Below the pieces are notes generated by a model that was given only the letters and a program-made list of their open reading frames with translations, ran no database searches and had not been told where the DNA came from. Below are positions 4,757 to 24,233 of a stretch of DNA of 64,000 bases, piece after piece. The stretch comes from an uncultured Algimonas sp. (lineage in GTDB: Bacteria; Pseudomonadota; Alphaproteobacteria; Caulobacterales; Maricaulaceae): the NCBI GenBank assembly GCA_964435725.1, contig CAYTAJ010000002.1, positions 115 to 64,114 on the forward strand, in the 5' to 3' direction. Each line of letters starts with the position of its first letter. Position 1 is the stretch's first letter. The position numbers and the translations under genes are program-made.

Positions 4757-4766
4757 ACTTTATTGT

Positions 4767-8808: not shown

Positions 8809-8886
8809 TTTCAGTAGTCCCCCCGCTTAATAATTATCATATTTAAGCATTAACTCTTTTGCAAGTTGTAAAGCTCGAAGAAAAAT

Positions 8887-8901: not shown

Positions 8902-8964
8902 TATTTGCTTGTATCAAGGTTTTTATTTTGATAGTGCAATTTAAGATAAAATGACGGGGGTCTT

Positions 8965-9228: not shown

Positions 9229-9250
9229 TTCGTAACAAAGCGGCATATAT

Positions 9251-9805
9251 ATGTCGCTTTTTACGACTGCACCTCTAGCCGTACTTTGCGCTTTCTTGGC
9301 TGTAGCGGCACTAATAGATTCAAGAACGCATAAAATTCCGAACTGGTTAACTTTAATCGGTGGGGTTCTCGGGTTAGGCTTAATTGCTCTTGGGGAGGTG
9401 GCATTAAAGAATGCTCTAATAGGCTTTTCGGCTGGTTTCTTGGTTTTTTTCTTTCTGTACATATTAGGAATTGTTGGGGCTGGCGATGTCAAATTAATGG
9501 GGGTGTCAGGTTTGATTTTGGGGTTTCCCGATATAATCATTTTTCTTTTACTGGCGTGTCTTTTTTCATCCGCACTGAGCCTCGTCTATCTGATCTTGTC
9601 TGGAAGAGGTGGGCTTCTGATTAAGGATTTGTCGCGAATTTTCGCGCCTTTCATTAAGCTTTTCAAAAAGCAATCATCAAAACATGTTGTTTCAAATGTG
9701 CAGGGTGAGGCGATGGTTAAGATGCCATTTGCGCCAGGTGCTTTCATAGCAGCCTTGTATTTTTCATACACGTATATTCCGGTTGTGCAGGTCTACAACG
9801 GATGA
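9251..9805 (+). CDS. cpaA: A24 family prepilin peptidase (CpaA/TadV)
   Basis: DxxxxKIPNWL and GAGDVKL catalytic Asp motifs, C-terminal MPFAP, multi-TM. Confidence 0.93.
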   Translation: MSLFTTAPLAVLCAFLAVAALIDSRTHKIPNWLTLIGGVLGLGLIALGEVALKNALIGFSAGFLVFFFLYILGIVGAGDVKLMGVSGLILGFPDIIIFLLLACLFSSALSLVYLILSGRGGLLIKDLSRIFAPFIKLFKKQSSKHVVSNVQGEAMVKMPFAPGAFIAALYFSYTYIPVVQVYNG

Positions 9806-10770
9806 GGCGTTCGGGCGAAATTGGCTTATGGGAGGCCCTGTTGGACTCTCCTACATTTTGGTCAGAAGTTGTATTGCGTGGTGCATTGATTCTTGGGTTG
9901 TTTATCTCAGTTTGCTTTGTTTTGCTTTATTTGTCACGCCGAAGGCGGCGGATGGGGGAAGCTGGCTTTTTTAAAGATGAGCGTGGAAACTGGACGATAG
10001 AATTTGTGCTTATGGCGCCACTTATGACAATTTTTTTCGTTGTTTTAGGGCAAATGACTATATTAATGAGAACGGCCTTGGTGGTTCATTACTCGGCCTA
10101 CAATGCCGCACGATCTGCACGAGTTCACATGCCATCAATATGTGGCACTTTGGCGAAGGTGCAGCCAAATCTTTCAAACAGTTGTGGGGCAGTAAACCAG
10201 TTTGGGGATTTTGTTGAATTGAATAAGCGCGCCCCTCGCCCTGTTTCTAGAAATTATCAAGAGATTGCCGAAAGGGCGGCTCAGAAAACATTGGTTTCTG
10301 CCTCTCCTGTTAATAAGCGTCTTGCTTGTTCTGCTGGGGGAGGGTGTGATGTTCCGGACTTTTTCGATAAAATACCTTTTCAGTCTCAACTCAAAGAGGC
10401 GAGTTTGGTCTCGGCGAACAGACAGCGCGCAAGCTATGCTTATGACCCAGAAAATTTGAACCTTGAGCTTATTGTTGGTGAATTATCGCGATCTGATTTT
10501 CAAAACAAACAAATAACTCTCGAGGACGGAACTCAGATGGCTGCACGTTTGGTTGGTCCGGAAATAGCGCTCACGCAAGGAGAGAATGCTGATAGTGACT
10601 TAGGTTATCCTGTTACCGCAAAATTGACATTTCGTGCGCATTTGATGTTCCCATATTTCTCCAATAATTGCGAGTCAGGTAAATGTCTTTTTGGGGCGCG
10701 GTCGACGACTGACTCATCGGGTCGAAAGCGCTATTATTCTAATATAAATGCCGAAGTGACGGTGTATTAA
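9802..10770 (+). CDS. tadE: TadE-like minor pilin with an unusual N-terminal TM extension
   Basis: FFKDERG|NWTIEFVLMAP prepilin motif with E+5 and the TadE pattern VVHYSAYNAARSA. ATGA coupling to cpaA; alternative ATG at 9952. Confidence 0.85.
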   Translation: MRRSGEIGLWEALLDSPTFWSEVVLRGALILGLFISVCFVLLYLSRRRRRMGEAGFFKDERGNWTIEFVLMAPLMTIFFVVLGQMTILMRTALVVHYSAYNAARSARVHMPSICGTLAKVQPNLSNSCGAVNQFGDFVELNKRAPRPVSRNYQEIAERAAQKTLVSASPVNKRLACSAGGGCDVPDFFDKIPFQSQLKEASLVSANRQRASYAYDPENLNLELIVGELSRSDFQNKQITLEDGTQMAARLVGPEIALTQGENADSDLGYPVTAKLTFRAHLMFPYFSNNCESGKCLFGARSTTDSSGRKRYYSNINAEVTVY

Positions 10771-12510
10771 GTGTCCTCTGTTCCACATAACATTAGAGCC
10801 TCTTTTTTGATGGGTCGAATTAAACGATTTCGACGTTCTGAGCAGGGGTATATTTTACCTTTAATGCTTTTCATGATGTTACTTTTTACGTCAATATTAT
10901 TCTATATGGTGGACACTGGTGATGCTATTCTTAGGAAGACGCGACTTCAGCAGGCAGCTGATTCAGCAGCCATAAGTCAGGCTGAATGGTCGGCGCGGTC
11001 ATTAAATGTCATTTCCATGAATAATGTTGCGCAAACGCAATTACACACAACGCGAATAATTGGGGCAAGTTTACATACTTATGCCTTACAGGCTGAGGCG
11101 AAAACGGCTTATGTTGAGGCTCAGCTTTTAATTGAGACGGGCAAAGTTAATAATTGGAATGTTCAATGGTGTAAGACAAAGATTGGGTGTCTTTATTCTG
11201 CGCCTATTACGGCCACCTGGATGACAGGAATGGGGGTTTATCAAGGTTTTCTACTCTATAACGCTGGCGTTGTTGTTTATAAGCATTGGATAAAATATGA
11301 ACCCATGAATGGGTATGAATATTCTCATAGTGCTTTTGAGGCCATTTATGAGATGGATGATTATTTATTGGATGAAGAAAGAGCGAATGATTTTGGTGCG
11401 GCGAGTTTCGAATTAGCCGAATATCATGGGGCTGAGAACCTCTACACGTTTGGTGGGCAGGGATGCTCAGATCGTAAATGCGGGGACAATAACCCAATTG
11501 GCATGGGTGTTCCCGCTACGAAAGGCAGCTTCAGTCCGAGTGCATCGGATTTATTAAATGCTGGATCAATTGCTAAGCAATTTTGTGACGCCAGCAAAAA
11601 AGGTACGCCGAGTCAAACGTCACGTTTAGGTTATGCTGGCTATCAAGGAGGAAGACTTAATGGCAGTCCCGGGCGTGGTTATCCAACGGGCCGCGGCCCT
11701 TGGATGCATAGTGGTGGCGAGACAGCGTTCAAACACGTAAATGATGAAACCAAAATGGCGCGATATGTCGGCAACTTGGATGATTTATGGAGAGATGCGC
11801 CTTGGCCTGGGTTTTATGGTTCCGGTATGGCTGGACACCCTGGACCAGAGAGGCCTATTGCGCAGCAAAAAACTTGGTTAAAAAAATGGCCTCCAGATGG
11901 CTCAAACCGTCAAAGTATGAATAGTAATGCATTTCTTGAAATGTCAGAAAAGTTAGACGATTTGTATTGTAGTACCTTTGGTGTTGGGGGTGCGGTTCTG
12001 GATCAAATTAAGGTTTTAGATTCGTTTCCTTCGCTAGGTATTTTGCCAAATTTTGCTCGAATGACACCTAGGCCTGTGGGTTTGAAAGGTATGCAAAATG
12101 CAGCAAGCGCATTAGGGTCTACTCCGTCGAGCCTGTTAGAGAGATTTACAGACTCACGTTATATGTCTGTTTTCACGGTCGCGCGTGATGAGGGTAAGAT
12201 TTCCTTGCCAGACCAAGACGACAAGATTTCAATTTACGCCTATTCTCAGGCACAAATTTATAATCCTTCTGCTCCAGACTTATATTCACAAAACTGGCGC
12301 GCGCGTCTGGTTCAAGCCAGTTTTTTAAATGGGCGAGGATGTAACTCTATTTTACAAAATAATTTAACCAGTGATCTGGCTCCGCCGCGTCCAGAAGAGG
12401 TTCTGGATGATATGGGGCAAAAAGCAGGTGGAGGCTTTGAGCAATTTATAGATAGCTTTGACTCGTTTCGGTCGAGTTGTGAGGATTGGGGGGATGTCGT
12501 TGTTTATTAA
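10771..12510 (+). CDS. tadG: TadG-like large minor/tip pilin
   Basis: FRRSEQG|YILPL leader, TM, and VDTG...RLQQAADSAA Tad_N motif. Large Cys/Gly-rich variable region and a C-terminal DLYSQNWRARL motif. Confidence 0.85.
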   Translation: MSSVPHNIRASFLMGRIKRFRRSEQGYILPLMLFMMLLFTSILFYMVDTGDAILRKTRLQQAADSAAISQAEWSARSLNVISMNNVAQTQLHTTRIIGASLHTYALQAEAKTAYVEAQLLIETGKVNNWNVQWCKTKIGCLYSAPITATWMTGMGVYQGFLLYNAGVVVYKHWIKYEPMNGYEYSHSAFEAIYEMDDYLLDEERANDFGAASFELAEYHGAENLYTFGGQGCSDRKCGDNNPIGMGVPATKGSFSPSASDLLNAGSIAKQFCDASKKGTPSQTSRLGYAGYQGGRLNGSPGRGYPTGRGPWMHSGGETAFKHVNDETKMARYVGNLDDLWRDAPWPGFYGSGMAGHPGPERPIAQQKTWLKKWPPDGSNRQSMNSNAFLEMSEKLDDLYCSTFGVGGAVLDQIKVLDSFPSLGILPNFARMTPRPVGLKGMQNAASALGSTPSSLLERFTDSRYMSVFTVARDEGKISLPDQDDKISIYAYSQAQIYNPSAPDLYSQNWRARLVQASFLNGRGCNSILQNNLTSDLAPPRPEEVLDDMGQKAGGGFEQFIDSFDSFRSSCEDWGDVVVY

Positions 12511-13162
12511 TTCTAAATTACGTTCATTTCCGAAAGATGAAAAAGGAACAACGGCAATTGAGTTTTGTCTTTTATTACCTCTATTCGCCGCACTGGCTTT
12601 TTTCGTGTTGGATATGTCGAAAGCACAATTGACCGCCCTGCACGGGGCGTCTGAAGCGAGAACGGCCGCTTGGATGAGTGCGCGCCTAGAGGTTGATATC
12701 GGTGGTAGCTATAGGGCCTTGCCAAAAGAGGTTGCTGGGATGAAACTTTTCCGCCCATTTTGTGATAATGGCGAAGACAGTTTATCGTCACAATATTTAG
12801 AAGATAAACTTCCGAATGAAGATTATGTCGCTAATTTAGAGTCTAAATCTCGTATTGATGATAATGGCGACCAAATGTTTTTAGAAATCACGAACGACGT
12901 CGGTGACAAATTTTTCAGATCAGAATGTGTCGTGAATGATTTCGCCTATTCTGATCGTGGGCCGACGCGGTTTGAATTTTTTAAAATCCAGGAAAAAGCA
13001 CTGGTCCCAAATGTCAGAACCCTTAGGTTTGATGAATCTGATACAATTGCTTGTGGTTACGATCGCTTACTTTTGGATGGACTGGATACGGACGGATTTG
13101 ATGGGCAAATGGATGATCTTTTCCCCAACTTATTTCCACGCGCTTCGAATGGGCAGTGCTAA
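12494..13162 (+). CDS. tadE: TadE-like minor pilin
   Basis: FPKDEKG|TTAIEFCLLLP motif and ARTAAW. ATG 12494 with a GGGGG RBS is preferred over the track start 12458. Confidence 0.88.
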   Translation: MSLFINSKLRSFPKDEKGTTAIEFCLLLPLFAALAFFVLDMSKAQLTALHGASEARTAAWMSARLEVDIGGSYRALPKEVAGMKLFRPFCDNGEDSLSSQYLEDKLPNEDYVANLESKSRIDDNGDQMFLEITNDVGDKFFRSECVVNDFAYSDRGPTRFEFFKIQEKALVPNVRTLRFDESDTIACGYDRLLLDGLDTDGFDGQMDDLFPNLFPRASNGQC

Positions 13163-13164
13163 GC

Positions 13165-13980: not shown

Positions 13981-14757
13981 ATGCGGTTAGGAATTATTTT
14001 CTTGCTTATATCGTTGATTTTAGGGGGGTACGCCGCTTGGGAAACGAAGAATAAGCTCAGTGCTGAGGAGCAACGTTTTACAGAATGTTTTCTCAGGACA
14101 AATACATTCATCGGTAAAGGAGAGATCCTTGATGGTGATTCTAGAAAAGGCCTCTACACTCGAGAGTGTTTTTCAAGGTCGTCAAGGATGGATCAAATTG
14201 CGGTTGCGGACACGCCGGCGGATCGTGAATGGGTTGAAAGTAGGGCCGCGGTAGTTGATATCGAACAAGGCGTGCTTTTGTTAAAGCAGTTTTTTGTACC
14301 GCCAGACTCAATGGCATTCGATTTAGATCAAATTGAAAAAGGAAAGCGCGCGATTACAATTGGTGTAACGGAATTATCATCAGTTGGTCAGTTTATTGAC
14401 CCTGGGTCACGTGTCGACATTCTTGGTGTTTTTGAAACCCTTACGTCTATGCCAATAGGGACACAAGGCGAAGAAATCGACATTCCGCAAAGTCGCGTGA
14501 AGACTATCTTACAAAGCGTGAAGGTCATTGCGGCAGGACGGGTAACATCTGATGGCGCTTCGAGACAATTACGTGAGCAAGGCGGAGGGTACCGCACAGT
14601 AACTCTAGAGGTGACACCTGAAGAAGCTGAGCTGTTAGTTATGGCAAAGTCTCAATCATCTGTTGGATTGGTTTTAACACTTCGCCGCAAAGACGAAGCT
14701 AATCCAGTGCCGATTCAATCTGTTGACTTTGATGCTGTTATTAATAACGGCAACTAA
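13981..14757 (+). CDS. cpaB: Flp pilus assembly protein CpaB/RcpC
   Basis: N-terminal TM, SAF-like region, and the RcpC-domain motifs GKRAITI...IDPGSRVDILG, KTILQSVKVIA and VTLEVTPEEAELL. Confidence 0.92.
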   Translation: MRLGIIFLLISLILGGYAAWETKNKLSAEEQRFTECFLRTNTFIGKGEILDGDSRKGLYTRECFSRSSRMDQIAVADTPADREWVESRAAVVDIEQGVLLLKQFFVPPDSMAFDLDQIEKGKRAITIGVTELSSVGQFIDPGSRVDILGVFETLTSMPIGTQGEEIDIPQSRVKTILQSVKVIAAGRVTSDGASRQLREQGGGYRTVTLEVTPEEAELLVMAKSQSSVGLVLTLRRKDEANPVPIQSVDFDAVINNGN

Positions 14758-14774
14758 ACGATCGAACGCAGACA

Positions 14775-16772
14775 ATGGCACTCAAGCTCAGAATTCAGTA
14801 TAAGGCTCAAGGGCGAACCCAAAATTATCCGCTTACAGGAACGGCTTATGCCATAGGTACATTTGTCGGTAGCCCGAAAACTTCGTCTGATTTTGAAAAA
14901 ATCGAGATTAACCCGGGTCTTGCACAAGCGGCGATGCCTTTGGAGTTTGATCTGGAAGAGCACAGTCCTGGTGTTTGGGCCCTAACCGTCAATGTAGAAG
15001 ATAAATTTAGTCCTTATCAGTATTCACGATTTGATCCTGAAGAAAACGCCCTTCAAGAGCCCATAAACCTCAAGAAAAATCGAGCAATTTTACTTGAGGT
15101 GGGATCTATCTGGACCCGTCAAAGTATGGCGTTTGAGCTTATTGATGAACCACTCGATGATGCAGAATATGCCAAGCAAGTTGAGTGGATAGAACCTGTT
15201 CTTGAGTTAGAGGCTAAGCTCCATAAAGATTTTGCCAAACATTTGACTGAACTTGAGTCACGTGAGCGTAATTTTAATAGTCAACGTGACCGCAAAATGG
15301 TCCATGACAATTTAGTGGCGCGCCTCGATGAAGAGCTACCCAAGCAATCGGATGAATTAATTGCGGCGACGATTAAGCTTGCGATTATGCGGGGATTGAC
15401 GAAATTTATATCTTCAACCGACCCAAAGAAAGGTGATGTACCGTCTGAGTCTATCGCCCCTATTTTTGGTGTCGTACGTATGAGGGGGCTAGGTCAAAGT
15501 ATACTCAAACATATTGGCGTTTCGGGTATTGTTGAGCCACAACATAAAATTCTGGAAGACATTCGTAAATTTGAAGCAGGCTTTTCACGGGCTTATAAGA
15601 ACTTTGAAACGACACTTGGTCGAACCCCTTCAATAAATGCTGCGAGAATTTATTTTGTTGGTACAATCGAAGATCGTATTCATGAATATGGTCCCTTAAC
15701 GGAATTACTTGCTCTTGATTCTGTTGGCGATATCATGGTGATTAATTATAAAGAGATATATTTGGACCGTTTAGGGCGTGTTGAGAAATACCCATTCCGA
15801 TTCACAGATGATCAAGAATTAAAAAATATCGTTTCAAAAATTCTTCAACAATCAAATCGTACTTTAAACCAGCAAAACCCGATCGTAGATGTTCGTTTGC
15901 CGGATGGCTCGCGTGTTCATGCTGCGCAGGAACCCGTAGTCTTGGCGAAACGCCAGATTGATCCGTCGAATAAACTGGCGGCGACGTGTTTAACAATTCG
16001 TCGTTTTCCTGATGAACCCCTTACAATCGAGCGTTTAGTGGGCTTTGAAAGTTTGACTGAAGAAATGAGGGTGTTCTTAAAAGACTGCGTTAGATTGAGA
16101 AAAAATATTATCGTTTCGGGCGGTACAGGGTCAGGGAAAACTACGCTTATCAACTGCTTGTCGGCCTATTGCGATGAAAGTCATCGAATCGTTACAATCG
16201 AAGACACGGCCGAATTGCAAATTAAAAAACCTCATGTTGTCACGCTCGAAACTGTAAAAAAAACAACAGATAGTTCAGAGCCATACGATATCGGTGCATT
16301 AGTGCGTTCAGCTTTGCGTATGCGTCCGGAACGAATTTTTGTTGGGGAGTGTCGTGGAGCTGAGGCGTTGGATATGCTTCAAGCAATGAATACGGGCCAT
16401 AGCGGTTCAATGACGACAGCACATGCGAACTCTCCGCCAGAAATGTTATTGCGTCTCGAGAATATGGTTCTTTCGGCCCCTGGCGCTCCGCCTTTGGTTG
16501 CCATTAGAAATCTTGTTGCCTCCGCTGTTGACATTATTATTCAAGCCAACCGTTTTGAAATGACCGGCGAAGGAAATTCACGTCGCGTTACATCGATTGC
16601 AGAAATTGTTGGTATGGATGAAAATGGCGAGGATATAATTTTAGAACCGATATTTGAATATGTCGGCCATCCTGAAACAGGTGGTTTTCATGCTCAGACA
16701 GGTTATTTGCCAACATTTTGGCGGCATCTAGCTTTATTCAATCCTGAGTTACAGGAGGAAATTGATGCTTGA
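14775..16772 (+). CDS. cpaF: CpaF/TadA secretion ATPase with a ~300-aa N-terminal extension (FHA-like plus helical)
   Basis: GPLTELL, DIMVIN, VDVRLPDGSR, Walker A GGTGSGKTT, TIEDTAEL, RMRPERIFVGECRG, MNTGHSGSMTTAHAN. Confidence 0.93.
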   Translation: MALKLRIQYKAQGRTQNYPLTGTAYAIGTFVGSPKTSSDFEKIEINPGLAQAAMPLEFDLEEHSPGVWALTVNVEDKFSPYQYSRFDPEENALQEPINLKKNRAILLEVGSIWTRQSMAFELIDEPLDDAEYAKQVEWIEPVLELEAKLHKDFAKHLTELESRERNFNSQRDRKMVHDNLVARLDEELPKQSDELIAATIKLAIMRGLTKFISSTDPKKGDVPSESIAPIFGVVRMRGLGQSILKHIGVSGIVEPQHKILEDIRKFEAGFSRAYKNFETTLGRTPSINAARIYFVGTIEDRIHEYGPLTELLALDSVGDIMVINYKEIYLDRLGRVEKYPFRFTDDQELKNIVSKILQQSNRTLNQQNPIVDVRLPDGSRVHAAQEPVVLAKRQIDPSNKLAATCLTIRRFPDEPLTIERLVGFESLTEEMRVFLKDCVRLRKNIIVSGGTGSGKTTLINCLSAYCDESHRIVTIEDTAELQIKKPHVVTLETVKKTTDSSEPYDIGALVRSALRMRPERIFVGECRGAEALDMLQAMNTGHSGSMTTAHANSPPEMLLRLENMVLSAPGAPPLVAIRNLVASAVDIIIQANRFEMTGEGNSRRVTSIAEIVGMDENGEDIILEPIFEYVGHPETGGFHAQTGYLPTFWRHLALFNPELQEEIDA

Positions 16773-17631
16773 TATAATAAAAGACCCAAGAATATTGGCA
16801 GCTTTAACGGGCCTGTCATGGACGATTGGATTTTTTAGCTTTTTCTACCTTTGCTGGCAGTTGCTAAAACTGGACCGAAGTAAGCTTGATCTATCTGACA
16901 CACTTCAAAAAGATCGTCCTGTTTATGCCAGTCCAATGGGAATAGATATTAGTTTATATTCCATCATTTCTGGTAGTATTTTATTCATCGCTGTTTTTAT
17001 CGCGACGATTAATCCAATCTTCGCAATTATTGCAGGTGGTGCAGGTTTAACGCTTCCTCATTTTTATCAGGTATATCAAACAGACCAAGAAAGAAAAAAG
17101 TTTGAGCGGGACTTGCCCCAAACCGTTGAGCAAATTGCAAGATGGTTGCGATCTGGGCGTTCTTTAGAAGAGTCCATGAGATTAACGTCTCGCGATGCAC
17201 CGTCTGGAACACGCAGAGAAATGCGGCAAATTGCGAGCGAGCTTGATCTAAACGTCCCTGTAAATCATGTGATGACGACGGCGGCGAAACGTATAGGCAG
17301 CGACGCTTTTAACAACCTTGTTGTTTCACTGGCAGTTGCACGGAAAAGAGGCGGTGATATTCCTGTCGTACTCATGAAATTATCTGGAGCCTTGCGTGAG
17401 ATTATACGACTCAATGAAAAACTTAGAACGGCGACAATGGATGGTAAACGGACGGTCCTAATTATTGCTGTTATGCCTTTTGTAATTACCTTGATTGTGA
17501 TGATGGGACAGCCTCAATTAATCGAAACACTGACCGGTGAGATTCTGGGAATAATCATTATGCTGATAAGTGTCATTTTATACATTGGCGCTTTATATCT
17601 CCTAAACGGCATTCTTAAGACGAAAATTTAG
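16765..17631 (+). CDS. tadB: Tad inner-membrane platform protein TadB
   Basis: AGGAGG RBS at 16753. FERDLP...LRSGRSL T2SS-F pattern, GGDIP, and C-terminal TMs. Confidence 0.88.
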   Translation: MLDIIKDPRILAALTGLSWTIGFFSFFYLCWQLLKLDRSKLDLSDTLQKDRPVYASPMGIDISLYSIISGSILFIAVFIATINPIFAIIAGGAGLTLPHFYQVYQTDQERKKFERDLPQTVEQIARWLRSGRSLEESMRLTSRDAPSGTRREMRQIASELDLNVPVNHVMTTAAKRIGSDAFNNLVVSLAVARKRGGDIPVVLMKLSGALREIIRLNEKLRTATMDGKRTVLIIAVMPFVITLIVMMGQPQLIETLTGEILGIIIMLISVILYIGALYLLNGILKTKI

Positions 17632-18579
17632 GTGGGGGTTATGGATTTCAATTATCAAGAATTTTTAAAGTCTCCCAATTTTATCGCCTTATTGGTTTTA
17701 CTTTGTGTGTTGTGCTTTTCTTTCGCTATATTTTTTATGATACGGCAAAGAATTAAAGATATTAACTCCGGAATTAAATTTGAAAAATCTGAAGATACGC
17801 GACTAATGCTAGATCGCTACCCTTTGCTGAGATTGATCTCAAAAACCTTGACGCCTTTTTTTGATGAAGTGGCTCCCAGGTTTGAAGATGATTTATATGC
17901 TAAATTTAAATTAGCAGGACGTCCAGGTTCCATCGGAGGAACAGCGACACCGCGTGATGTATTTGATACATTTGGGTCTATCGCGATCGCTGGAATATTC
18001 GCCGGATTTTTCGTTACATTAACAATGGGTCTGAACTTGGCTGGTGTTGTGGCGCTTTCGATTGCGATTGGAGTACTAACATATTTTGTGATGTCTGCAT
18101 GGCTAGATGGTGAAGCTTCAAAACGTCAGACAAAAATTGACAATGAATTTCCTTTTTATTTGGATCTTAGTGTCATGGCATTAGGCGCTGGAGCTAAGGT
18201 AGAGGATACGTTTGATTTGTATACCGCCGATCGTACGCCTACACCTTTGTCTGAAGAGTTAAACTTGGTTTCAGGTGAGTTAAAGGCAAGTGTGCCTTTC
18301 ATTGATGCAATGTTGAACTTTAATGGTCGTACACAAGCTTTCTCCGTTGAACGAACAGTTACCGAAATTGTTAATAGCCGTGAAGCGGGTACACCAGTGG
18401 CACAAGTGATGAATATTGCGGCCAAAGACTTAAGAGAAGCGCGTACAAATAATGCAGAGCAAATGGGAGAGAAGCTAAAGTCAAAAATTATTTTACCTTC
18501 AATGATGATGGCCGGTTCGGCTATGCTCCTAATCTTAGGGCCCGCTTTCATTGAAATCTTAAACAGTGATGTTTTGTAA
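17632..18579 (+). CDS. tadC: Tad inner-membrane platform protein TadC
   Basis: IDNEFPFYLDLSVMALGAG, AGTPVAQVM, AEQMGEKL...KIILP T2SS-F pattern. Follows tadB directly. Confidence 0.88.
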   Translation: MGVMDFNYQEFLKSPNFIALLVLLCVLCFSFAIFFMIRQRIKDINSGIKFEKSEDTRLMLDRYPLLRLISKTLTPFFDEVAPRFEDDLYAKFKLAGRPGSIGGTATPRDVFDTFGSIAIAGIFAGFFVTLTMGLNLAGVVALSIAIGVLTYFVMSAWLDGEASKRQTKIDNEFPFYLDLSVMALGAGAKVEDTFDLYTADRTPTPLSEELNLVSGELKASVPFIDAMLNFNGRTQAFSVERTVTEIVNSREAGTPVAQVMNIAAKDLREARTNNAEQMGEKLKSKIILPSMMMAGSAMLLILGPAFIEILNSDVL

Positions 18580-18591
18580 AAAGGGTATATT

Positions 18592-19677
18592 GTGGCTGAT
18601 CCTGATCTATTTATCGAAGTTGCAGACGGAAAATCGGTTAACCGGTTTTTGGTGTCGCCCAAAAAACATGAGTTTGTGATAGGCAGCGGAAAAGCGGCTG
18701 ACTTTCAAATTGGGAAACGTAACCTTAAAGAGGTGCACATAAAACTCGTTAGAAATCCGAATACCCAAGAATGGCATGCGCAAGACCTGTCTAATGACTT
18801 ATTTGAAATCAAAGGAAGCACACAAAAACGCTCAATGGCTTCTGTTGCAATAAAACAAGCGATAACAGTCAATCCAAAGTGTATTATCAGGCTAAACACC
18901 GGAAAGGCTTCACTTTCGGAGAAGCTGCTTGCATCAAAATCTGTCGGAGGGTTAGGCGCCAAGGAATATGCTGTGATGATATTAGCCCCAATTTCTATCG
19001 GTCTAACAGTGTTTATGGTTTTGCAAAACCAACCTGATACAGCGCCTAAGAAAGAATTAGATTCAGTTTTAAAATGCCATGCGCAACGCACAGGGCCTGC
19101 ATTGAAAAAATATAAATATGGGTCAACCTATTTGGAACGCGTTTGGCCAGATGCATTCTATGATTGCGTGAAAAATGCAGAAGCCAGTTGTCGAGTAGCT
19201 TATGGAGAAAAAAGCGAAAAAAGAGATGCTTATCGTGGCACTTATAAAAGCCTTTGTTCTTTCCTTTCCGAAACAAGAGAGGAAACAGATGATGGCAAGA
19301 TTGCTATAGACTATTACGCATCAGAATATCCTGCAAAACGCACCATTGATCAATATAATCGACGGGCATCAGTCAGTGAGAATCAATCATTAAAACCTTT
19401 GTCCGAAAATGCGAAGCAGATTATTTCAGAGGTTTGCTTCACGTGTAATGATTATTCTCAGTTAAATGAAGCCCAAAGACAATCTTGTGATGAAGCCTCA
19501 AAAACTGTCGATGATTTGAGTCGTGCTCGAGAGTTGTGGAGTGCCGGAAGGACTAACGATGCATTAGCAGAATATCGTGCGATAAAGGTGAACTCTATGC
19601 AGTCTTGCGAGGCTTACAGAGCCGCTGATTTAAAATCTATAATTATTCTCAGAACCTCAGGTTCTCAGTCTAGGTAA
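18592..19677 (+). CDS. degenerate FHA-like domain - TM - Cys-rich periplasmic protein
   Basis: N-terminus FVIGSG...DFQI...KEVHIKL...WHAQDLSND follows FHA spacing but lacks GR and SxxH. One TM (YAVMILAPISIGLTVFMVL), 8 Cys after the TM, and a TPR-like last helix pair. Confidence 0.7.
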   Translation: MADPDLFIEVADGKSVNRFLVSPKKHEFVIGSGKAADFQIGKRNLKEVHIKLVRNPNTQEWHAQDLSNDLFEIKGSTQKRSMASVAIKQAITVNPKCIIRLNTGKASLSEKLLASKSVGGLGAKEYAVMILAPISIGLTVFMVLQNQPDTAPKKELDSVLKCHAQRTGPALKKYKYGSTYLERVWPDAFYDCVKNAEASCRVAYGEKSEKRDAYRGTYKSLCSFLSETREETDDGKIAIDYYASEYPAKRTIDQYNRRASVSENQSLKPLSENAKQIISEVCFTCNDYSQLNEAQRQSCDEASKTVDDLSRARELWSAGRTNDALAEYRAIKVNSMQSCEAYRAADLKSIIILRTSGSQSR

Positions 19678-19691
19678 GAATTGGAAACTTC

Positions 19692-22202
19692 ATGCTTGAT
19701 GTGAAATATCAAAGACGTTCAGGGTGGTCATCTACTAGGATGGCTGGGCAGTCTGTTTTGTTAATTGAAACAACTGATCCAGCATTAAGTGTCAGATTAA
19801 TCTCAGAGTTTGAGCAGTTTCAAACTTTCAAAAATGAGTTTGTGGAAAATGGTGGACGTTGGGCCCAAACTAATTTTCTCGATTTTGAAGACAATGCCTT
19901 GTCTGATGGTGAGATCAGACTCGCAAATGCTGGAATATCAGTTGCTGACTTGATTTCAGAAAGCCCCTCTGATGATCTTGCTTTAGAAAACTTATTAAAG
20001 GGTGTGCTAAATGCCTTAGCATATACGCATGAGTCTTACACGCAAAAGGGAGAGAACAGAGGACATGGTAACGTCAGACCCGAGTTGATTTTTCAAGACT
20101 CAAGTTCGGCTGATTATCCTTATCTCTTGGGGCCTGCTCTAAATCGTATCCCCGGACCCTATCAACCAGAACTATATCCTGAGAAAGCTTTTGATAAACA
20201 AATTCCGACTCAAAAAGGAGATTTGTATGCGTTAGGCATGATTGCTTTGCGATTACGGATGGGAGACCAAGAATTTGGCGAGTTTTACTCAGAAATTTAT
20301 GAATTAGAAGGAGATCGTGATATTGCTGCGAGATGGCAGGGCTGGCACGATAATATCTTCTTACATCCAAAGCTAAATCGTAAAGTCGGGGCAGATGATA
20401 AGCTCAGTAATTTTGTTATGCGGTTGTTAGAACGCAATGAAGATGCGCAATTTCCATCGGCCCGTTTTGCATTAGAGGAATTAAGCGAATTTACGGGGGC
20501 CATTAAGGTAAAGCCAGAAAAGACAGTTGTTGTTGAGACGGCGGAAGAAAGCGCGGTCGAAGATGAAGATGATGATCCATTTGTTCTTGAGCCGAAGAAG
20601 AAAAATACCAAACTCATAAATGGTCTTCTTATTGGCGCTTGTGCAATCGTTGCCGCAAGTGTAGCTGTTGTGATTTTCAAACCGGATGTCGTGACAAATG
20701 TTTTTGGGTCCGGTTCTGGTATTACCCTTCAAGCCGTTGACGACACATTGTCTGTAGATATGGCAGATAGTCAAAATACGTCTTGTAATGTCATCACAGG
20801 CACAGGGAATTGTGCCTTTGATGATTTAACAACGAAAAATAAGCGGAATATTGAAAAACTGAAACAAGAAATGTTTGTATCAGCAGTCACATTTGGTGAA
20901 ACAACGAAACGCGAAGCTCCATTTAGATTTTCTACAGATGACGGTTTTTCTTTTGAAATGAGCCAAAATGGTAGCTTGACAGTTAATACTGAAAATATGG
21001 CGGTCAATGTAGATAGCCGTGAAACAAACAGAACAATTTTATATACCTTAAAGGTGAAAAATAAGACGGATGAGGGCGCGGTGAATGTTGTTCTGACGCC
21101 ACCCAATACAAAACCAACGGCCACCACGGACGATGTGAAGATTCCGGTCGATAAAATCGAAGATTTCAAATCATTCTCTCTTCTGAAAAATGATATTGAT
21201 CCAGATCTTGCCAATAAACCTTCTGGTTGGTCATTTAATGAACAATTACGCATTTATTCCGTCAATGGGATCGAGTTTGATGGTTCACCGATAGATGTCT
21301 CTTTTGATAATGGTGAGACGAAAGTGAAAGTCAGACGTGATGGGTTATTAGAGTTTGAAAATGTCCCAGAAACCGTGACAGAGCCCATAAGCGCGAGCTT
21401 CACCTATAATGCGTTTGATGTCTTGGGCGCGCGTTCTGGAGACACGACAGCAAACATTACGATTACAAAACCAGATTGGGAAAACTCTAATCCTATTGCA
21501 CAACCAGACTCAGTTGTGGTGGATATGATAACGGAGTCTTTGCCTGTAATATTTGGTTTAATGGCTGATAATGGGAGCGGCATTGATACCGATAATGATA
21601 TCTCAGAAGAAATGGCTGCTATTGGTATATCTGATAGTCTAAAAGTTATTGATGTTAACGGACAGCCTGTGAGCGCTGGGGGGGACATAAGCCTTTCTAA
21701 TGGTGCTAAGGTCCAAGTCATCGAAGACGGAACAGTCGCTATCCTCGAGGCTCCCAGTAATGTGGAATTTGGAAAGCCTGTCTCGGAGCAATTAATTTAT
21801 ACTCTTGCCGATGAGCATGGCGGACTGGCCAATGGTGTCGCGACACTGAACTTTATGATGTCGGCCGATCCGAACTATGAACAATTAAATGACAGCTGGC
21901 GTATAAAAGTAAGGGGTAGAGTCCCAAATGGGTCTTATCAGCAAGTACAATCAGTTGACTTGCCTTCAATAAATGATTGTCGATCCTTTGCGCGAAATAT
22001 CACAGAAGAAAAAGCAAAAAGATTATTACATCCTGATTATGATTTCTTAGGTGTCTTCTGGGTTCAAGAGTTTGACGAGTATTCAGTTTGCATTTTAGAA
22101 CGTGGCTCAGATGGCCTTTTCCAAGCAAAACTGAAATCAGATGAAACGATAAAGACTAGCTTATCAGCCTTTATTCCAGAAAAATTTGAAGGGGCCGAGT
22201 GA
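19692..22202 (+). CDS. membrane protein: Hanks-type (pseudo)kinase domain - acidic linker - TM - cadherin/Ig-like repeats
   Basis: ALAYTH...HGNVRPE (catalytic-loop position, Asp replaced by Asn), YQPE, DLYALG, and LLERNEDAQFPSA C-lobe motifs. No DFG or VAIK seen. One TM, then three AxDD...NG/DG...YT repeats. Confidence 0.8.
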   Translation: MLDVKYQRRSGWSSTRMAGQSVLLIETTDPALSVRLISEFEQFQTFKNEFVENGGRWAQTNFLDFEDNALSDGEIRLANAGISVADLISESPSDDLALENLLKGVLNALAYTHESYTQKGENRGHGNVRPELIFQDSSSADYPYLLGPALNRIPGPYQPELYPEKAFDKQIPTQKGDLYALGMIALRLRMGDQEFGEFYSEIYELEGDRDIAARWQGWHDNIFLHPKLNRKVGADDKLSNFVMRLLERNEDAQFPSARFALEELSEFTGAIKVKPEKTVVVETAEESAVEDEDDDPFVLEPKKKNTKLINGLLIGACAIVAASVAVVIFKPDVVTNVFGSGSGITLQAVDDTLSVDMADSQNTSCNVITGTGNCAFDDLTTKNKRNIEKLKQEMFVSAVTFGETTKREAPFRFSTDDGFSFEMSQNGSLTVNTENMAVNVDSRETNRTILYTLKVKNKTDEGAVNVVLTPPNTKPTATTDDVKIPVDKIEDFKSFSLLKNDIDPDLANKPSGWSFNEQLRIYSVNGIEFDGSPIDVSFDNGETKVKVRRDGLLEFENVPETVTEPISASFTYNAFDVLGARSGDTTANITITKPDWENSNPIAQPDSVVVDMITESLPVIFGLMADNGSGIDTDNDISEEMAAIGISDSLKVIDVNGQPVSAGGDISLSNGAKVQVIEDGTVAILEAPSNVEFGKPVSEQLIYTLADEHGGLANGVATLNFMMSADPNYEQLNDSWRIKVRGRVPNGSYQQVQSVDLPSINDCRSFARNITEEKAKRLLHPDYDFLGVFWVQEFDEYSVCILERGSDGLFQAKLKSDETIKTSLSAFIPEKFEGAE
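20727..21860 (+). repeat. three protein-level cadherin-like/Big_9-type Ig repeats inside the pseudokinase gene
   Basis: Repeat starts LQAVDD, KPTATTDD and NPIAQPDS. Repeat ends ILYTLKV...GAVNVVL, FTYNAFD...TANITI and LIYTLADEHG...ATLNF. Diverged at the DNA level. Confidence 0.65.
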
Positions 22203-22333
22203 TGAATAATATTCTGGAAATTATTATAGTTTTGGGCGTCATAATTTTACCCATCATGTTGCTGATTTTAAAAATTGTCCAAGGCATAGCGAAACTGAAC
22301 ATGAATGATTATTTCATGTTAGCTACATTTTAA
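22202..22333 (+). CDS. 43-aa pilin-like small protein without a cleavable leader (not in the ORF track)
   Basis: ATG overlaps the upstream TGA and has a GAAGGGG RBS. Translation MNNILEIIIVLGVIILPIMLLILKIVQGIAKLNMNDYFMLATF*. Aligns with the mature Flp N-terminus (NNLVVGLIILGIVALPLV). Confidence 0.65.
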   Translation: MNNILEIIIVLGVIILPIMLLILKIVQGIAKLNMNDYFMLATF

Positions 22334-22343
22334 GTCATAAATC

Positions 22344-23333
22344 ATGAGCGGAACTCTTAGCGAAAAAGAAAAGGATATTTGGACACGCGCCATTCACAAT
22401 GTTTTGGGACCAATTGTACCTTTATTTAATGATGATAGTGTTTCTGAAATTATGATTAATGGACCTTCGGCAGTTTATGTTGAACGCAAAGGTCGTATTG
22501 AAAAAACAGATATTGAATTTCGGTCCGAATATGACCTTGAAGCTGGTATGCGCCGTGTCGCACAATTCGCAGGTCGTCGCTTAGGCCCCGATGACATTAG
22601 TGTTGATGCTCGTCTGCCTGATGGTTCTCGAGTACAAATCGTAAGAAGCCCTGCGGCAAGAAATGGTATGAGTGTCGCGATAAGGAAGTTTTCTAAAACA
22701 ACTCTGAAAATTGAAAACATTATAGGTAGTTCTCTTACACAAGAAATGGCTGACTTTCTTGAAAATTCAGTCGCTAGCCATAAGAACGTTATTATTTCTG
22801 GAGGTACGGGGACAGGGAAAACAACAATGTTAAATGTACTCGCAGACTATATTGATCCTGCAGAAAGAATACTTACAATTGAAGATACGGCCGAGCTGCA
22901 ACTGAATAATGAACACGTTGTGACATTAGAATCACAAAAAGCCCGTGATAGCGGGAAGGGTGGTATAACAATCAGGGAACTTTTTAAGGCGTCTCTTAGA
23001 ATGCGTCCTGATCGTATCATTGTTGGGGAATGTCGAGGTGGTGAAGCCGTAGAATTATTACAAGCGATGACGTCTGGTCATGATGGTACTTTGGCTACGG
23101 TTCATGCAAGTACTGTTCATGACACTTTAAATCGGTTGGAGACTATGGCACTAATGAGTGATATAGATATGCCTCTCAACGCTCTTAGGCGCCAGATTGC
23201 ATCAGCAGTTGATATTATTGTAAATATTGTACGTGAATCTTCTGGGTTGAGAAAAGTTGCACGCATTGCAACAGTTGAAGACAATCTAGATAGCAAAGGC
23301 GATTATGTTTTTGAAACATTGTTCGAATTTTAA
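22344..23333 (+). CDS. cpaF: second, short CpaF/TadA-family ATPase
   Basis: SEIMINGP, VDARLPDGSR, Walker A GGTGTGKTT, TIEDTAEL, RMRPDRIIVGECRGGEA, MTSGHDGTLATVHA. Confidence 0.93.
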   Translation: MSGTLSEKEKDIWTRAIHNVLGPIVPLFNDDSVSEIMINGPSAVYVERKGRIEKTDIEFRSEYDLEAGMRRVAQFAGRRLGPDDISVDARLPDGSRVQIVRSPAARNGMSVAIRKFSKTTLKIENIIGSSLTQEMADFLENSVASHKNVIISGGTGTGKTTMLNVLADYIDPAERILTIEDTAELQLNNEHVVTLESQKARDSGKGGITIRELFKASLRMRPDRIIVGECRGGEAVELLQAMTSGHDGTLATVHASTVHDTLNRLETMALMSDIDMPLNALRRQIASAVDIIVNIVRESSGLRKVARIATVEDNLDSKGDYVFETLFEF

Positions 23334-23348: not shown

Positions 23349-24233
23349 ATGAAGCATTTAATTACAGGATTTATTGTAGCGTTTTCGATATCTGCGGCCC
23401 CTATGATTAGTCATGCTCAATTTGGCGGTTTGGACAAAATTAAAGACAAGTTTTCCAAAACAAAAAAAGAAGCCGATAAAGTTAAGGATACTGTCGACAC
23501 CGTAAACGAAACCCGCGAGACGATAGAAACTGTTCAGGATATGGTGAAAGGCGGGAGTGGTAAGCTTGATAAGCTCTTTAATGATGTGAGCTTAGTCGCC
23601 TCTGCCTATAATCAATGCTCGGACTTAACGATTTCAAAAGGGAAATCGACGGTCACGATTACAGGCGCAACGGATAACCTATCTGGTTTGCGTAAAGATC
23701 TTCCCAAATCAGATTCACTTCGATCAAATACAATCATAGAAATTGATAAATCTATGTGTGATTTTGTTGTGGGTATCCGGCGTATTCAAGACCCTAAAGA
23801 TAAGGAAACACCGTCTCTCACAGGGCCGGGGCGACAACAGGTTGCCGATGCATCGGTCAGAAAGCCCGTTCGTTTACGATTTGATTTTAATGAAGATATC
23901 AAGTTCGCACAATTCTATTATGTTGAATGGAAACCCGATCCATTTGTTGTACCACTCCTAGATTTAAAAAACGCAGAGAGCCGTGAGGATTTCTTTGGCG
24001 GAAATAATATTCCTTTGGCTAAAGGTGGTAAGTCATATGAGCTAAAAGGTCCCGATGGTCCCATTACACTATTTGGTTATGGCCCTCGCTTAATCGTTCT
24101 TGTCGAGAGCAAGAAGGCCTTAAATCTCAATGATGAGTCGCCACAAAAATGGCTAACCTCATTAAAGAAAGCACAGATAACAGGTAATGTTGCTGTGTCT
24201 GTTTCATGGCTAGAGCTTTACACGCCTAATTAA
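23349..24233 (+). CDS. hypothetical secreted protein, C-terminal domain possibly DUF4384-like
   Basis: Signal peptide ending SHA-Q, a charged helical N-region, and a C-terminal beta-domain (VRLRF...FYYVEW...PL...GPRLIVLVES) resembling DUF4384 by eye. Confidence 0.6.
   Translation: MKHLITGFIVAFSISAAPMISHAQFGGLDKIKDKFSKTKKEADKVKDTVDTVNETRETIETVQDMVKGGSGKLDKLFNDVSLVASAYNQCSDLTISKGKSTVTITGATDNLSGLRKDLPKSDSLRSNTIIEIDKSMCDFVVGIRRIQDPKDKETPSLTGPGRQQVADASVRKPVRLRFDFNEDIKFAQFYYVEWKPDPFVVPLLDLKNAESREDFFGGNNIPLAKGGKSYELKGPDGPITLFGYGPRLIVLVESKKALNLNDESPQKWLTSLKKAQITGNVAVSVSWLELYTPN

What the first reader, a model, noticed from the sequence alone, without database searches (positions are those of the whole stretch)
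22202..22333. Hidden 43-aa leaderless paralog of the major pilin
Seen: an unannotated ORF wedged between the pseudokinase stop (TGA/ATG overlap) and the second cpaF, with a GAAGGGG RBS. Its sequence MNNILEIIIVLGVIILPIMLL aligns without gaps to the predicted mature Flp (G|NNLVVGLIILGIVALPLVFWL), sharing NN, LG and LP at the same positions. It has no basic leader or Gly cleavage site (in-frame TGA at 22187) but does carry Glu at the +5 position. Inference: a pilin that is made already mature and bypasses the prepilin peptidase, or a membrane-anchored decoy or regulator of assembly.
Basis: partly seen in the sequence, partly recalled or inferred. Interest (0 to 1): 0.8.

Follow-up and report, generated by a model that had tools for sequence, protein, structure and literature searches.

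The report
Leaderless Flp-type pilin gene
A conserved 43-codon gene just upstream of a second pilus ATPase encodes a membrane helix that looks like a mature Flp (Tad) pilin made without the usual cleavable leader. If it does enter the pilus machine, it would be a pilin that needs no prepilin peptidase.

Summary
Its ATG shares one base with the TGA of the 836-aa gene. GAAGGGG lies 7 nt upstream, and an in-frame TGA five codons upstream rules out any leader.

It is a conserved gene. Two Algimonas-type relatives keep it, with 21 synonymous against 7 non-synonymous differences, while the other five frames carry stops. A 43-44-aa positional counterpart lies directly upstream of the orthologous short TadA/CpaF-like ATPase in Rhizobium, Neorhizobium and Chthonobacter. 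There the two genes overlap (ATGA or TGATG), and RefSeq annotates the small one as a hypothetical protein.

The match to the locus's 87-aa pilin beats real and shuffled TM helices (score 50 against a maximum of 37; shuffle p about 4e-4; hhalign 77%).

An exhaustive profile search of 1.84 billion proteins found one protein outside the 43-44-aa family. It is an Flp prepilin with a normal leader (G|ATMFEY), encoded next to an orthologous short ATPase (hhalign 96.9%, full length). Three more leader-bearing relatives share that arrangement.

So this is an Flp-type pilin that has lost its class III signal peptide. Its function is inferred only: a peptidase-independent minor pilin or pilin mimic acting with the second ATPase. 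It is a new variant of a known kind.

The parts
22188..22194 (+). Shine-Dalgarno-like GAAGGGG, 7 nt upstream of the sORF ATG
   Evidence: Read directly from the sequence. Relatives also have SD-like motifs before their starts: GGAG in L001, AAGGA in L084, GGAGAG, GGAGG or GGGAGGGGG in the Rhizobium-type loci.
22202..22333 (+). 43-codon gene for a leaderless Flp-type single-helix membrane protein
   Evidence: ORF confirmed. Conserved in L001 and L084 with dN 0.076-0.22 and saturated dS, while the other five frames carry stops. Belongs to a family of 43-44-aa proteins. AF2 predicts one helix over residues 2-42, pLDDT 83. Similarity to pilins is shown.
22344..23333 (+). Short (329 aa) TadA/CpaF-type ATPase. 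It starts 10 nt after the sORF stop, has no evident SD of its own, and is the conserved partner gene of the sORF.
   Evidence: Pfam T2SSE E 5.9e-57. NCBIfam TadA-family, below cutoff. It falls in a clade distinct from the long ATPase: 52-54% identity to the Rhizobium-type (Rhizobium, L083) short ATPases and 49% to L082's, against 40-43% to long ATPases. A sORF or FlpB gene is adjacent in every locus of this clade examined.
8965..9228 (+). 87-aa Flp-like prepilin (leader MKNYFNKFLRDEDG | NNLVVG...), the presumed major pilin. It belongs to the Flp1_like type and has no Glu at +5.
   Evidence: ORF. No Pfam hit of its own, but it aligns with Rhizobium 67-aa and L082 82-aa homologues (A4). The L082 homologue hits PF16982 Flp1_like at E 1.5e-5.
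9251..9805 (+). A24 prepilin peptidase
   Evidence: Pfam Peptidase_A24 E 1.1e-19.
9802..13162 (+). Three TadE/TadG-like pseudopilin genes (9802-10770, 10771-12510, 12458-13162)
   Evidence: Pfam TadE, Tad and Flp_Fap/TadE hits, weak to moderate. Canonical G|xxxxE[F] motifs are visible in the translations.
13981..14757 (+). CpaB/RcpC homologue
   Evidence: Pfam RcpC E 1.2e-22.
14775..16772 (+). Long (665 aa) TadA/CpaF-type ATPase with an N-terminal extension of about 300 aa
   Evidence: Pfam T2SSE E 2.4e-50 over residues 305-589. 39% identical to the Rhizobium long ATPase.
16762..18579 (+). Two T2SSF platform genes (TadB/TadC-like)
   Evidence: Pfam T2SSF E 6.8e-16 and 5.1e-11.
18592..19677 (+). 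361-aa protein at the position of the FHA-domain protein in the syntenic Rhizobium locus
   Evidence: Only a very weak FHA hit here (E 0.2). The syntenic gene in Rhizobium and L085 is annotated as, or hits, FHA.
19692..22202 (+).
   Evidence: ORF. Only faint kinase and cadherin-like hits. An 830-aa homologue precedes the sORF in L084.
23349..24233 (+). 294-aa signal-peptide-like protein downstream of the short ATPase
   Evidence: ORF. No family hit. A 299-aa counterpart follows the ATPase in L084.

Best explanation
The ORF is a genuine gene for a 43-residue, single-helix inner-membrane protein. It descends from an Flp (type IVc/Tad) pilin and has lost its class III signal peptide, so translation starts within one residue of the old cleavage site. 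It is therefore made 'already mature' and cannot be a substrate of the A24 prepilin peptidase encoded in the locus.

It is co-produced with the locus's second, short TadA/CpaF-type ATPase. The two genes are adjacent in every lineage and are translationally coupled or overlapping.

Most likely mechanism (inferred, not shown): it inserts into the inner membrane like a pilin and engages the TadB/TadC platform as a low-copy minor subunit. It could act as an adapter or primer between the TadE/TadG-like tip and the 87-aa major pilin, or as a platform-bound pilin. Through this it would link the short ATPase to filament assembly or disassembly without any peptidase step.

Shown: the gene is real, it is conserved, it lacks a leader, it resembles pilins, and it is linked to the ATPase gene. 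Inferred: topology, entry into the machine and role.
For: Real gene:
- Orthologues exist in L001 (Algimonas MAG) and L084, with 21 synonymous against 7 non-synonymous differences (window vs L001). dN is 0.076-0.22 with dS saturated, and all other frames carry stops.
- The start of the antisense ORF is not conserved.

Family:
- 17 protein clusters were found, all exactly 43 aa, from Rhizobium, Neorhizobium, Chthonobacter and Algimonas.
- The exhaustive HMM search of 1.84 billion representatives returned only five proteins at E<=1e-3.

Linkage to the short ATPase:
- The small gene lies directly upstream of the short-clade ATPase in all loci examined.
- The two genes overlap as ATGA or TGATG in the Rhizobium-type loci. 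In the window the gap is 10 nt and the ATPase has no SD of its own.

Pilin ancestry:
- The only hit outside the 43-44-aa family in the exhaustive search is P0020. It is a 58-aa Flp prepilin (leader + G|ATMFEY; Pfam Flp_Fap E 2.7e-6; named Flp by JGI). It is encoded between an orthologous short ATPase and a Flp1-like gene followed by an A24 peptidase.
- hhalign of the sORF family against P0020 gives 96.9% probability over 41 of 43 columns.
- hhalign of Rhizobium-type sORFs against four leader-bearing FlpB proteins gives 94.6%, E 6.7e-8, full length.
- The reciprocal FlpB profile retrieves the Rhizobium-type sORFs at E of about 1e-4 among 26,275 ORF segments.
- A negative control with unrelated Flps gives 0.6%.

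The window's own sequence:
- Against the locus pilin family, hhalign gives 77%, E 2e-5, and the ungapped score of 50 lies 5-6 sd above real TM helices.
- Its top non-self hits among 26,275 ORF segments are P0020, Rhizobium-type sORFs and Flp1-like pilins.

Shape and size:
- AF2 predicts a single helix over residues 2-42. The 45-residue mature C. crescentus Tad pilin is also a single helix (PMC11067988).

Precedent for a second short Flp acting as an adapter minor pilin in a Tad-like machine: KilK and KilO (PMC12075869).
Against: - There is no evidence of translation, membrane insertion, topology or assembly. The RNA-run contigs were uninformative.
- The Algimonas-type sequences alone match leader-bearing FlpB only weakly (hhalign 6%, E 0.006; FlpB profile E 29). 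They match Rhizobium-type sORFs moderately (47%, E 2e-4, over the TM only). Their orthology to the Rhizobium family therefore rests largely on position, length and the TM motif.
- Neither the sORF nor the Rhizobium-type members tested hit Pfam Flp_Fap. Only one of four leader-bearing FlpB proteins does, and below the gathering score.
- Without the basic leader, the usual N-in orientation is not assured. The Algimonas type has Glu near the N-terminus and 2-3 Lys/Arg after the helix, which under the positive-inside rule would favour the opposite orientation.
- Rhizobium-type members lack Glu at +5, which Tad pilins use for subunit contacts (PMC11067988).
- The stated rule in the field is that minor pilins need peptidase processing to function (PMC12075869).
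Confidence: 0.5

Rival explanations
1. It is a non-polymerising membrane tether or regulator of the short ATPase. A pilin helix has been exapted as a small anchor that stays in the inner membrane. Its 17-residue C-tail or its helix recruits, gates or inhibits the short ATPase or the platform. This corresponds to the reader's 'decoy or regulator'.
For: - Strict adjacency and translational coupling with the short ATPase across lineages, including a separate two-gene operon in Rhizobium.
- The C-terminal half is as conserved as the TM: NxNDYFxLATF in the Algimonas type, LFGMSxxLxGMP[LF] in the Rhizobium type.
- The charge distribution of the Algimonas type (acidic N-end, basic after the helix) fits N-out/C-in (read from the sequences).
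- Glu+5 is lost in the Rhizobium type.
Against: - Leader-bearing relatives with the same full-length mature sequence are ordinary prepilins next to a peptidase, so the ancestral role was a processed pilin.
- C-terminal positive charges also occur in leader-bearing FlpB proteins such as L090 and L091, so the charge argument is weak.
- I know of no precedent for a 43-aa anchor of a TadA-type ATPase, and nothing was found.
Confidence: 0.3
2. It is an upstream ORF whose translation merely delivers ribosomes to the SD-less ATPase gene (translational coupling or a leader peptide). The peptide itself would have no function.
For: The ATPase start has no evident SD in the window and lies 10 nt after the sORF stop. 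The stop and start overlap in the Rhizobium-type loci.
Against: - The amino-acid sequence is under strong purifying selection, and its length is fixed at 43-44 aa across genera whose DNA is saturated at synonymous sites.
- It shows specific full-length similarity to pilins.
- Coupling and a functional peptide are not mutually exclusive.
Confidence: 0.07
3. The Algimonas sORF is an independent, lineage-specific truncated copy of the locus's own 87-aa pilin. On this view it is not an orthologue of the Rhizobium/FlpB family, and the two leaderless families arose convergently at the same position.
For: - The window sORF profile matches the Flp1-like family better (77%) than the Rhizobium sORFs (47%) or FlpB (6%).
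- It shares NN at +1/+2 with its own pilin.
Against: - Same length, same position and same coupling to orthologous ATPases (54% identity).
- The pooled profile that includes the Algimonas sequences still aligns with P0020 over its full length, including the DYF C-terminal motif.
- phmmer with the window sORF alone ranks P0020 first among non-self hits (E 0.023).
- Two independent leader losses at the same locus position is less parsimonious than one.
Confidence: 0.1
4. It is a chance ORF, with chance resemblance between two hydrophobic helices.
For: The ORF is short, AT-rich and hydrophobic. Pfam and NCBIfam give no hit.
Against: Conservation with a coding-type substitution pattern, a 43-aa family spanning genera, and similarity above every null used.
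Confidence: 0.02

Closest known systems
Flp/Fap (type IVc, Tad) pilins, e.g. Caulobacter crescentus PilA (PMC11067988)
   Same: - The mature protein is about 45 residues and forms a single amphipathic helix.
- The N-terminal half is hydrophobic.
- Glu sits at +5 in the Algimonas-type members.
- The gene lies in a locus with an A24 peptidase, TadB/C-type platform proteins, a CpaB homologue and a CpaF-type ATPase.
   Different: - No class III signal peptide and no Gly-1, so it cannot be a peptidase substrate.
- No Tyr/Phe at +6.
- No Pfam Flp_Fap hit.
- Translationally coupled to a second, short ATPase.
Leader-bearing 'FlpB' prepilins of metagenomic relatives (P0020 in L082; L089, L090, L091)
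   Same: - The mature length is the same (44 aa).
- The L-x-L-G/A...P...[FY]...P-[FL] pattern is shared, and the full-length profile match is 95-97% (hhalign).
- They are encoded next to the orthologous short ATPase, the Flp1-like pilin and the A24 peptidase.
   Different: - They keep a 13-20-residue charged leader ending in Gly, plus Glu+5 and an aromatic or His residue at +6.
- The gene order is ATPase then FlpB, not sORF then ATPase, and they are not translationally coupled.
KilK/KilO, short Flp 'adapter' minor pilins of the Myxococcus Kil Tad-like system (PMC12075869)
   Same: They are a second, short, all-helical Flp. It sits alongside a longer major pilin and TadE/G-type tip pilins in an FHA-rich Tad-like machine, and is expressed at low level.
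   Different: KilK and KilO have leader peptides and a cleavage motif. No sequence comparison was made here, and the Kil system has a single ATPase.
43-aa hypothetical proteins WP_003594894.1 and WP_012763633.1 (RL_RS41075 on pRL11 of R. johnstonii 3841)
   Same: They are positional counterparts with the same length, the same coupling to the short ATPase and the same Tad-like gene set.
   Different: They share only 21-26% identity with the window protein. They lack Glu+5, have Glu at position 2 instead, and have no basic residues. The gene pair is transcribed divergently from the rest of the locus.

Membership tests
Flp/Fap type IVc pilins (PF04964) | N-terminal class III signal peptide ending in Gly-1, cleaved by a TadV/CpaA-type A24 peptidase | tested here: not met
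   An in-frame TGA lies five codons upstream of the ATG, allowing at most one extra codon (GTG). No family member has a conserved upstream extension.
Flp/Fap type IVc pilins (PF04964) | Flp motif after the cleavage site: Glu at +5 and Tyr/Phe at +6, followed by a hydrophobic helix | tested here: inconclusive
   In the Algimonas type, Glu6 aligns with Glu+5 of FlpB but Ile or Val follows it. In the Rhizobium type, Ser/Thr/Asn occupies that position and Glu is at position 2.
Flp/Fap type IVc pilins (PF04964) | Detectable sequence homology to the family | tested here: inconclusive
   The direct Pfam scan gives no hit at E<=10. An indirect link exists: the sORF family matches P0020 at 96.9%, and P0020 matches Flp_Fap at E 2.7e-6, 27.5 bits, below the gathering score of 32.2. 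The Algimonas-only profile against FlpB gives 6%.
Flp/Fap type IVc pilins (PF04964) | Small all-helical mature subunit of about 40-50 aa | tested here: met
   43 aa. AF2 predicts a helix over residues 2-42, pLDDT 83. The mature C. crescentus pilin is 45 residues and a single helix.
Flp/Fap type IVc pilins (PF04964) | Encoded in a tad-type locus | tested here: met
   A24 peptidase, TadE/G-like genes, RcpC, two T2SSE and two T2SSF genes lie in one gene string. The Rhizobium locus is syntenic.
Flp/Fap type IVc pilins (PF04964) | Polymerises into an extracellular filament | not testable with these tools
   This needs shearing plus MS, cysteine labelling or cryo-EM.
43-aa sORF family coupled to the short TadA-like ATPase (RefSeq hypothetical proteins WP_003594894.1 and WP_012763633.1) | 43-44 aa, immediately upstream of and coupled to the short-clade ATPase, with an L-G/A...P-[LIVM]-[ML] helix motif | tested here: met
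   Position and length are identical. L11, P17 and M19 are invariant or nearly so. Profile similarity of the Algimonas type to the Rhizobium type is only moderate (47%, E 2e-4).
Flp1_like pilins (PF16982; the locus's 87-aa pilin family) | Homology to the helix of the locus's own major pilin ('paralog of the major pilin') | tested here: inconclusive
   hhalign gives 77% (Algimonas-only profile) and 69% (whole family) over 28-29 columns. The ungapped score of 50 beats all TM nulls. The similarity is confined to the TM helix.
Regulatory leader peptide or uORF | Function lies in the act of translation, so the peptide sequence is free to drift | tested here: not met
   dN/dS is about 0.03-0.18 and the length is fixed across genera.

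The most novel reading that the evidence does not exclude
A naturally leaderless type IV (Flp) pilin is inserted into the membrane and fed into a Tad-like machine without any prepilin-peptidase step, by a dedicated second ATPase whose gene is translationally coupled to it. This would be the first peptidase-independent pilin, and a two-motor, two-pilin, secretin-less Tad variant shared by marine Algimonas and Rhizobium plasmids.
Probability: 0.3. Interest if true: 0.85.

Novelty: new variant of a known kind. Interest (0 to 1): 0.65.

Why it matters
All type IV filament subunits described so far are made as prepilins. Leader cleavage is treated as a prerequisite for function (for example, the statement on minor pilins in PMC12075869).

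A conserved pilin-derived protein that starts at the cleavage site raises three questions:
- What is the leader really needed for: targeting, orientation, or holding the subunit back?
- How can a pilin helix orient itself without its basic leader?
- What does a second, PilT-sized TadA-type ATPase do in a Tad-like system? Canonical Tad systems are thought to use one bifunctional motor (PMC11300603, PMC12019362).

The same module is present on pRL11 of Rhizobium johnstonii 3841 and in R. etli CFN42, which are genetically tractable, so the question can be tested directly. The finding also shows that a functional pilus component can hide among 43-codon 'hypothetical' genes that annotators call inconsistently.

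Tried and rejected
- **Pfam, NCBIfam and PDB sequence searches.** The sORF and its family gave nothing usable. P0020 against PDB gave only spurious undecaprenyl-diphosphatase hits.
- **Expression evidence.** The window comes from seawater metagenomes and has no RNA runs. Contigs from Rhizobium 'RNA-seq' runs cover the region as 15-25-kb contigs of flat depth, which says nothing about transcription or translation.
- **More distant short-ATPase relatives.** Myxococcota, Chloroflexota and Gammaproteobacteria loci (L033-L080; most of L092-L168) have no sORF-like or FlpB-like gene beside the ATPase. On plasmids, only Rhizobium and Neorhizobium carry the orthologue.
- **Generic Flps from unrelated loci.** Used as a control, they gave no similarity (hhalign 0.6%).
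- **Literature.** Searches for a leaderless Flp or pilin, or for a second Tad ATPase, found nothing relevant in the open-access library.
- **Antisense ORF 22171-22302.** Rejected because its start codon is not conserved.
- **Foldseek on the 43-residue single helix.** Not run, because such a model matches any long helix.
- **Complex prediction.** AF-multimer with TadB/C, the pilin or the ATPase is not available here.
- **Topology.** No topology predictor was available. The positive-inside reasoning was done by eye and is inconclusive, because leader-bearing FlpB proteins also carry basic residues after the helix.


Full report
**Observation**

ATG 22202 to TAA 22333 encodes MNNILEIIIVLGVIILPIMLLILKIVQGIAKLNMNDYFMLATF. 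The A of its ATG is the last base of the TGA that ends the 836-aa ORF (19692-22202). GAAGGGG lies 7 nt upstream. An in-frame TGA at 22187 excludes any N-terminal extension beyond one GTG codon. Ten nucleotides after its stop begins a 329-aa T2SSE/CpaF-type ATPase (Pfam E 5.9e-57).

The 87-aa protein at 8965-9228 reads MKNYFNKFLRDEDG|NNLVVGLIILGIVALPLVFWL...

**It is a real gene**

An Algimonas MAG (L001, ATPase 93% identical) and a third metagenomic locus (L084, ATPase 84% identical) carry the same ORF at the same place.
- Window against L001 shows 21 synonymous and 7 non-synonymous nucleotide differences (four conservative amino-acid replacements).
- dN is 0.076 and dS is saturated.
- The other five reading frames contain stops in all three sequences.
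- The start codon of the antisense ORF (22171-22302) is not conserved.
- The start varies (ATG, GTG, ATG) but is always preceded by an SD-like motif.

**Family and genomic linkage**

In Rhizobium, Neorhizobium and Chthonobacter, scanning upstream of the 55%-identical orthologue of the short ATPase found a 43-codon ORF in every locus. A typical sequence is METMSSILILGLVLIPLMMFFPTAVQMMATLFGMSTVLVGMPL.
- A k-mer-seeded profile search found 17 clusters, all exactly 43 aa.
- An exhaustive HMM search of 1.84 billion representatives returned only five proteins at E<=1e-3.
- In the Rhizobium-type loci the small gene overlaps the ATPase start (ATGA or TGATG).
- In the Rhizobium, Neorhizobium and L085/L086 loci, where enough flank is held, the small gene and the ATPase form a two-gene unit transcribed divergently from the rest of a syntenic gene set.
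- That gene set is: Flp-like, A24 peptidase, TadE/TadG-like genes, two unknowns, CpaB, a long ATPase, two T2SSF genes and an FHA protein.
- RefSeq annotates the small gene as a hypothetical protein in some records (WP_003594894.1; RL_RS41075 on pRL11 of R. johnstonii 3841) and omits it in others.

The window locus has the same parts in one direction. No secretin or TadZ/CpaE was detected in either version.

**Relationship to pilins**

Similarity of the window sORF to its own locus's pilin is above chance.
- All 317 TM segments from the fetched loci score at most 44 (mean 23, sd 5).
- Among 69-119 TM-like segments of the same clade the maximum is 32-37.
- Composition-preserving shuffles of the hydrophobic core reach 50 in 2 of 5000 trials.
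- The Rhizobium pair and both cross pairs also exceed their shuffles (p 0.007, 2e-4 and 1.6e-3).

The key result is P0020, the one hit outside the 43-44-aa family in the exhaustive search.
- It is a 58-aa protein, MVGMLNRLRTDQDG|ATMFEYVLILGMIVLPLIMLFEKLFEMLSDYFGMIAYYVSWPFL, matching profile positions 3-43.
- It has a canonical Flp leader and G/xxxxEY motif. It hits Pfam Flp_Fap (E 2.7e-6, below the gathering score) and JGI names it Flp.
- It is encoded between an orthologue of the short ATPase (49% identity to the window's short ATPase, 40% to the long one) and an 82-aa homologue of the window's 87-aa pilin. That homologue hits PF16982 Flp1_like at E 1.5e-5. An A24 peptidase follows.

A metagenome scan with the short-ATPase alignment found three more loci (L089-L091) with the same order: short ATPase, leader-bearing short Flp (44-aa mature part, Glu+5, C-terminus ...P-F/L), then the Flp1-like pilin. 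In L090 and L091 an A24 peptidase and a TadE-like gene follow.

hhalign results:

| Comparison | Probability | E-value | Columns |
|---|---|---|---|
| sORF family vs P0020 | 96.9% | 1.9e-10 | 41 |
| Rhizobium-type sORFs vs four leader-bearing 'FlpB' | 94.6% | 6.7e-8 | 41 |
| sORF family vs Flp1-like family | 69% | 4.3e-5 | 29 |
| Algimonas-type only vs Flp1-like family | 77% | 2e-5 | 28 |
| Algimonas-type vs Rhizobium-type | 47% | 2e-4 | 22 |
| Algimonas-type vs FlpB | 6% | 0.006 | 22 |
| sORF family vs unrelated Flps (control) | 0.6% | 0.094 | 9 |

The FlpB profile retrieves the Rhizobium sORFs (E about 1e-4 among 26,275 ORF segments) but not the Algimonas ones. With the Algimonas profile, or the window peptide alone, all top non-self hits are Rhizobium-type sORFs, Flp1-like pilins and P0020, though none is individually significant.

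My reading:
- The Rhizobium-type sORFs are securely leaderless FlpB.
- The window's sORF is securely a member of a conserved leaderless pilin-like family.
- Its assignment to the FlpB lineage, rather than to an independent truncated copy of the 87-aa pilin, rests on position, length, coupling and modest sequence signals.

In both leaderless types translation begins within one residue of the ancestral cleavage site. Met1 aligns with -1 in the Algimonas type and with +1 in the Rhizobium type.

Structure: AF2 with the family alignment gives one continuous helix, residues 2-42, pLDDT 83. The 45-residue mature C. crescentus Tad pilin is also a single helix whose Glu+5 bonds to neighbouring subunits (PMC11067988).

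**Mechanism (inferred)**

Leader-bearing FlpB proteins are ordinary peptidase substrates next to the short ATPase. The ancestral role was therefore a processed, probably minor, pilin working with that ATPase. In the alphaproteobacterial loci the leader is gone and the gene has become the first cistron of the ATPase message.

The most economical reading is a ready-made pilin-like subunit, produced in fixed ratio with the accessory motor, that enters or occupies the TadB/TadC platform without a peptidase step.

The Myxococcus Kil system gives a precedent for a second, short Flp acting as an adapter between a TadE/G-type tip complex and a longer major pilin, although those adapters keep their leaders (PMC12075869). 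The short ATPase is PilT/VirB11-sized and lacks the long N-terminal region of the other motor. Whether it extends, retracts or gates is unknown.

Caveats:
- The orientation of a leaderless helix is uncertain. The Algimonas type has an acidic N-end and basic residues after the helix, but so do some leader-bearing FlpB proteins.
- Glu+5 is lost in the Rhizobium type.
- Glu+5 is also absent from the Flp1-like pilin in both alphaproteobacterial lineages.

An anecdotal observation: the first residues of the two pilin-like proteins match within each lineage. The pairs are NN/NN in Algimonas, E/D in Rhizobium and A...E/A...E in L082. Three lineages are too few for a test.

**Rivals**
- A non-polymerising tether or regulator of the short ATPase (0.3).
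- Independent origin from the 87-aa pilin (0.1).
- A pure coupling uORF (0.07), contradicted by peptide-level selection.
- A chance ORF (0.02).

**Novelty**

Open-access literature searches found no leaderless Flp or pilin and no description of this two-ATPase module. The gene family exists in RefSeq only as 'hypothetical protein'. I class it as a new variant of a known kind. The finding is worth following up because tractable Rhizobium strains carry it.

Noticed in passing
window 1-27000; L081 (Rhizobium pSU303_2) 3991-16099: This Tad-like locus has no detectable secretin (RcpA/CpaC) or TadZ/CpaE. It has two TadA-type ATPases (665 aa and 329 aa) and an FHA-position protein. The same gene set is syntenic on Rhizobium and Neorhizobium replicons.
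   Followed up: partly
window 8965-9228; L009 5113-5379(-); L082 1626-1874: The presumed major pilin belongs to the Flp1_like (PF16982) type rather than Flp_Fap. It lacks Glu at +5 in Algimonas (G|NNLVVG) and Rhizobium (G|DMAQIV) but keeps it in the metagenomic relatives (G|AQGLEL, G|ADMIEY, G|ADLIEY).
   Followed up: partly
L082 102-2450; L089 739-2434; L090 566-2812; L091 3327-6800: Related metagenomic loci have the order short ATPase, leader-bearing short Flp, then Flp1-like pilin. An A24 peptidase follows in L082, L090 and L091, and a TadE-like gene in L090 and L091. The short-ATPase/short-Flp pairing therefore predates the loss of the leader, and the gene order is inverted in the leaderless lineages.
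   Followed up: partly
L169 (R. johnstonii 3841 pRL11) 1526-1657; plasmid hits: The Rhizobium 43-aa gene is annotated in some records and missing in others. In strain 3841 it has an out-of-series locus tag (RL_RS41075), which suggests it was added later.
   Followed up: no
L001 5846-5860: The Algimonas MAG has an in-frame ATG four codons upstream of the GTG (MELK-VNNILE...). A 1-nt indel puts this stretch out of frame in the window, so the extension is not conserved.
   Followed up: yes
window 19692-22202; L084 613-3105; L085 11419-13971: An 836-aa protein (830 aa in L084) with faint kinase and cadherin-like hits precedes the sORF in the Algimonas-type loci. In L085/L086 an 850-860-aa Peptidase_C14 + Sel1 protein follows the short ATPase instead. 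Large accessory proteins vary between lineages.
   Followed up: no
window 22334-22346: The short ATPase has no evident Shine-Dalgarno sequence (TAAGTCATAAATCATG). Its translation probably depends on ribosomes terminating at the sORF stop.
   Followed up: partly
window 2582-8808 (- strand): Upstream on the opposite strand lie a 724-aa protein with an N-terminal ABC ATPase domain, an 858-aa protein with a TssR-like VWA domain, and a 492-aa protein with no family hit. Any link to the pilus locus is unknown.
   Followed up: no
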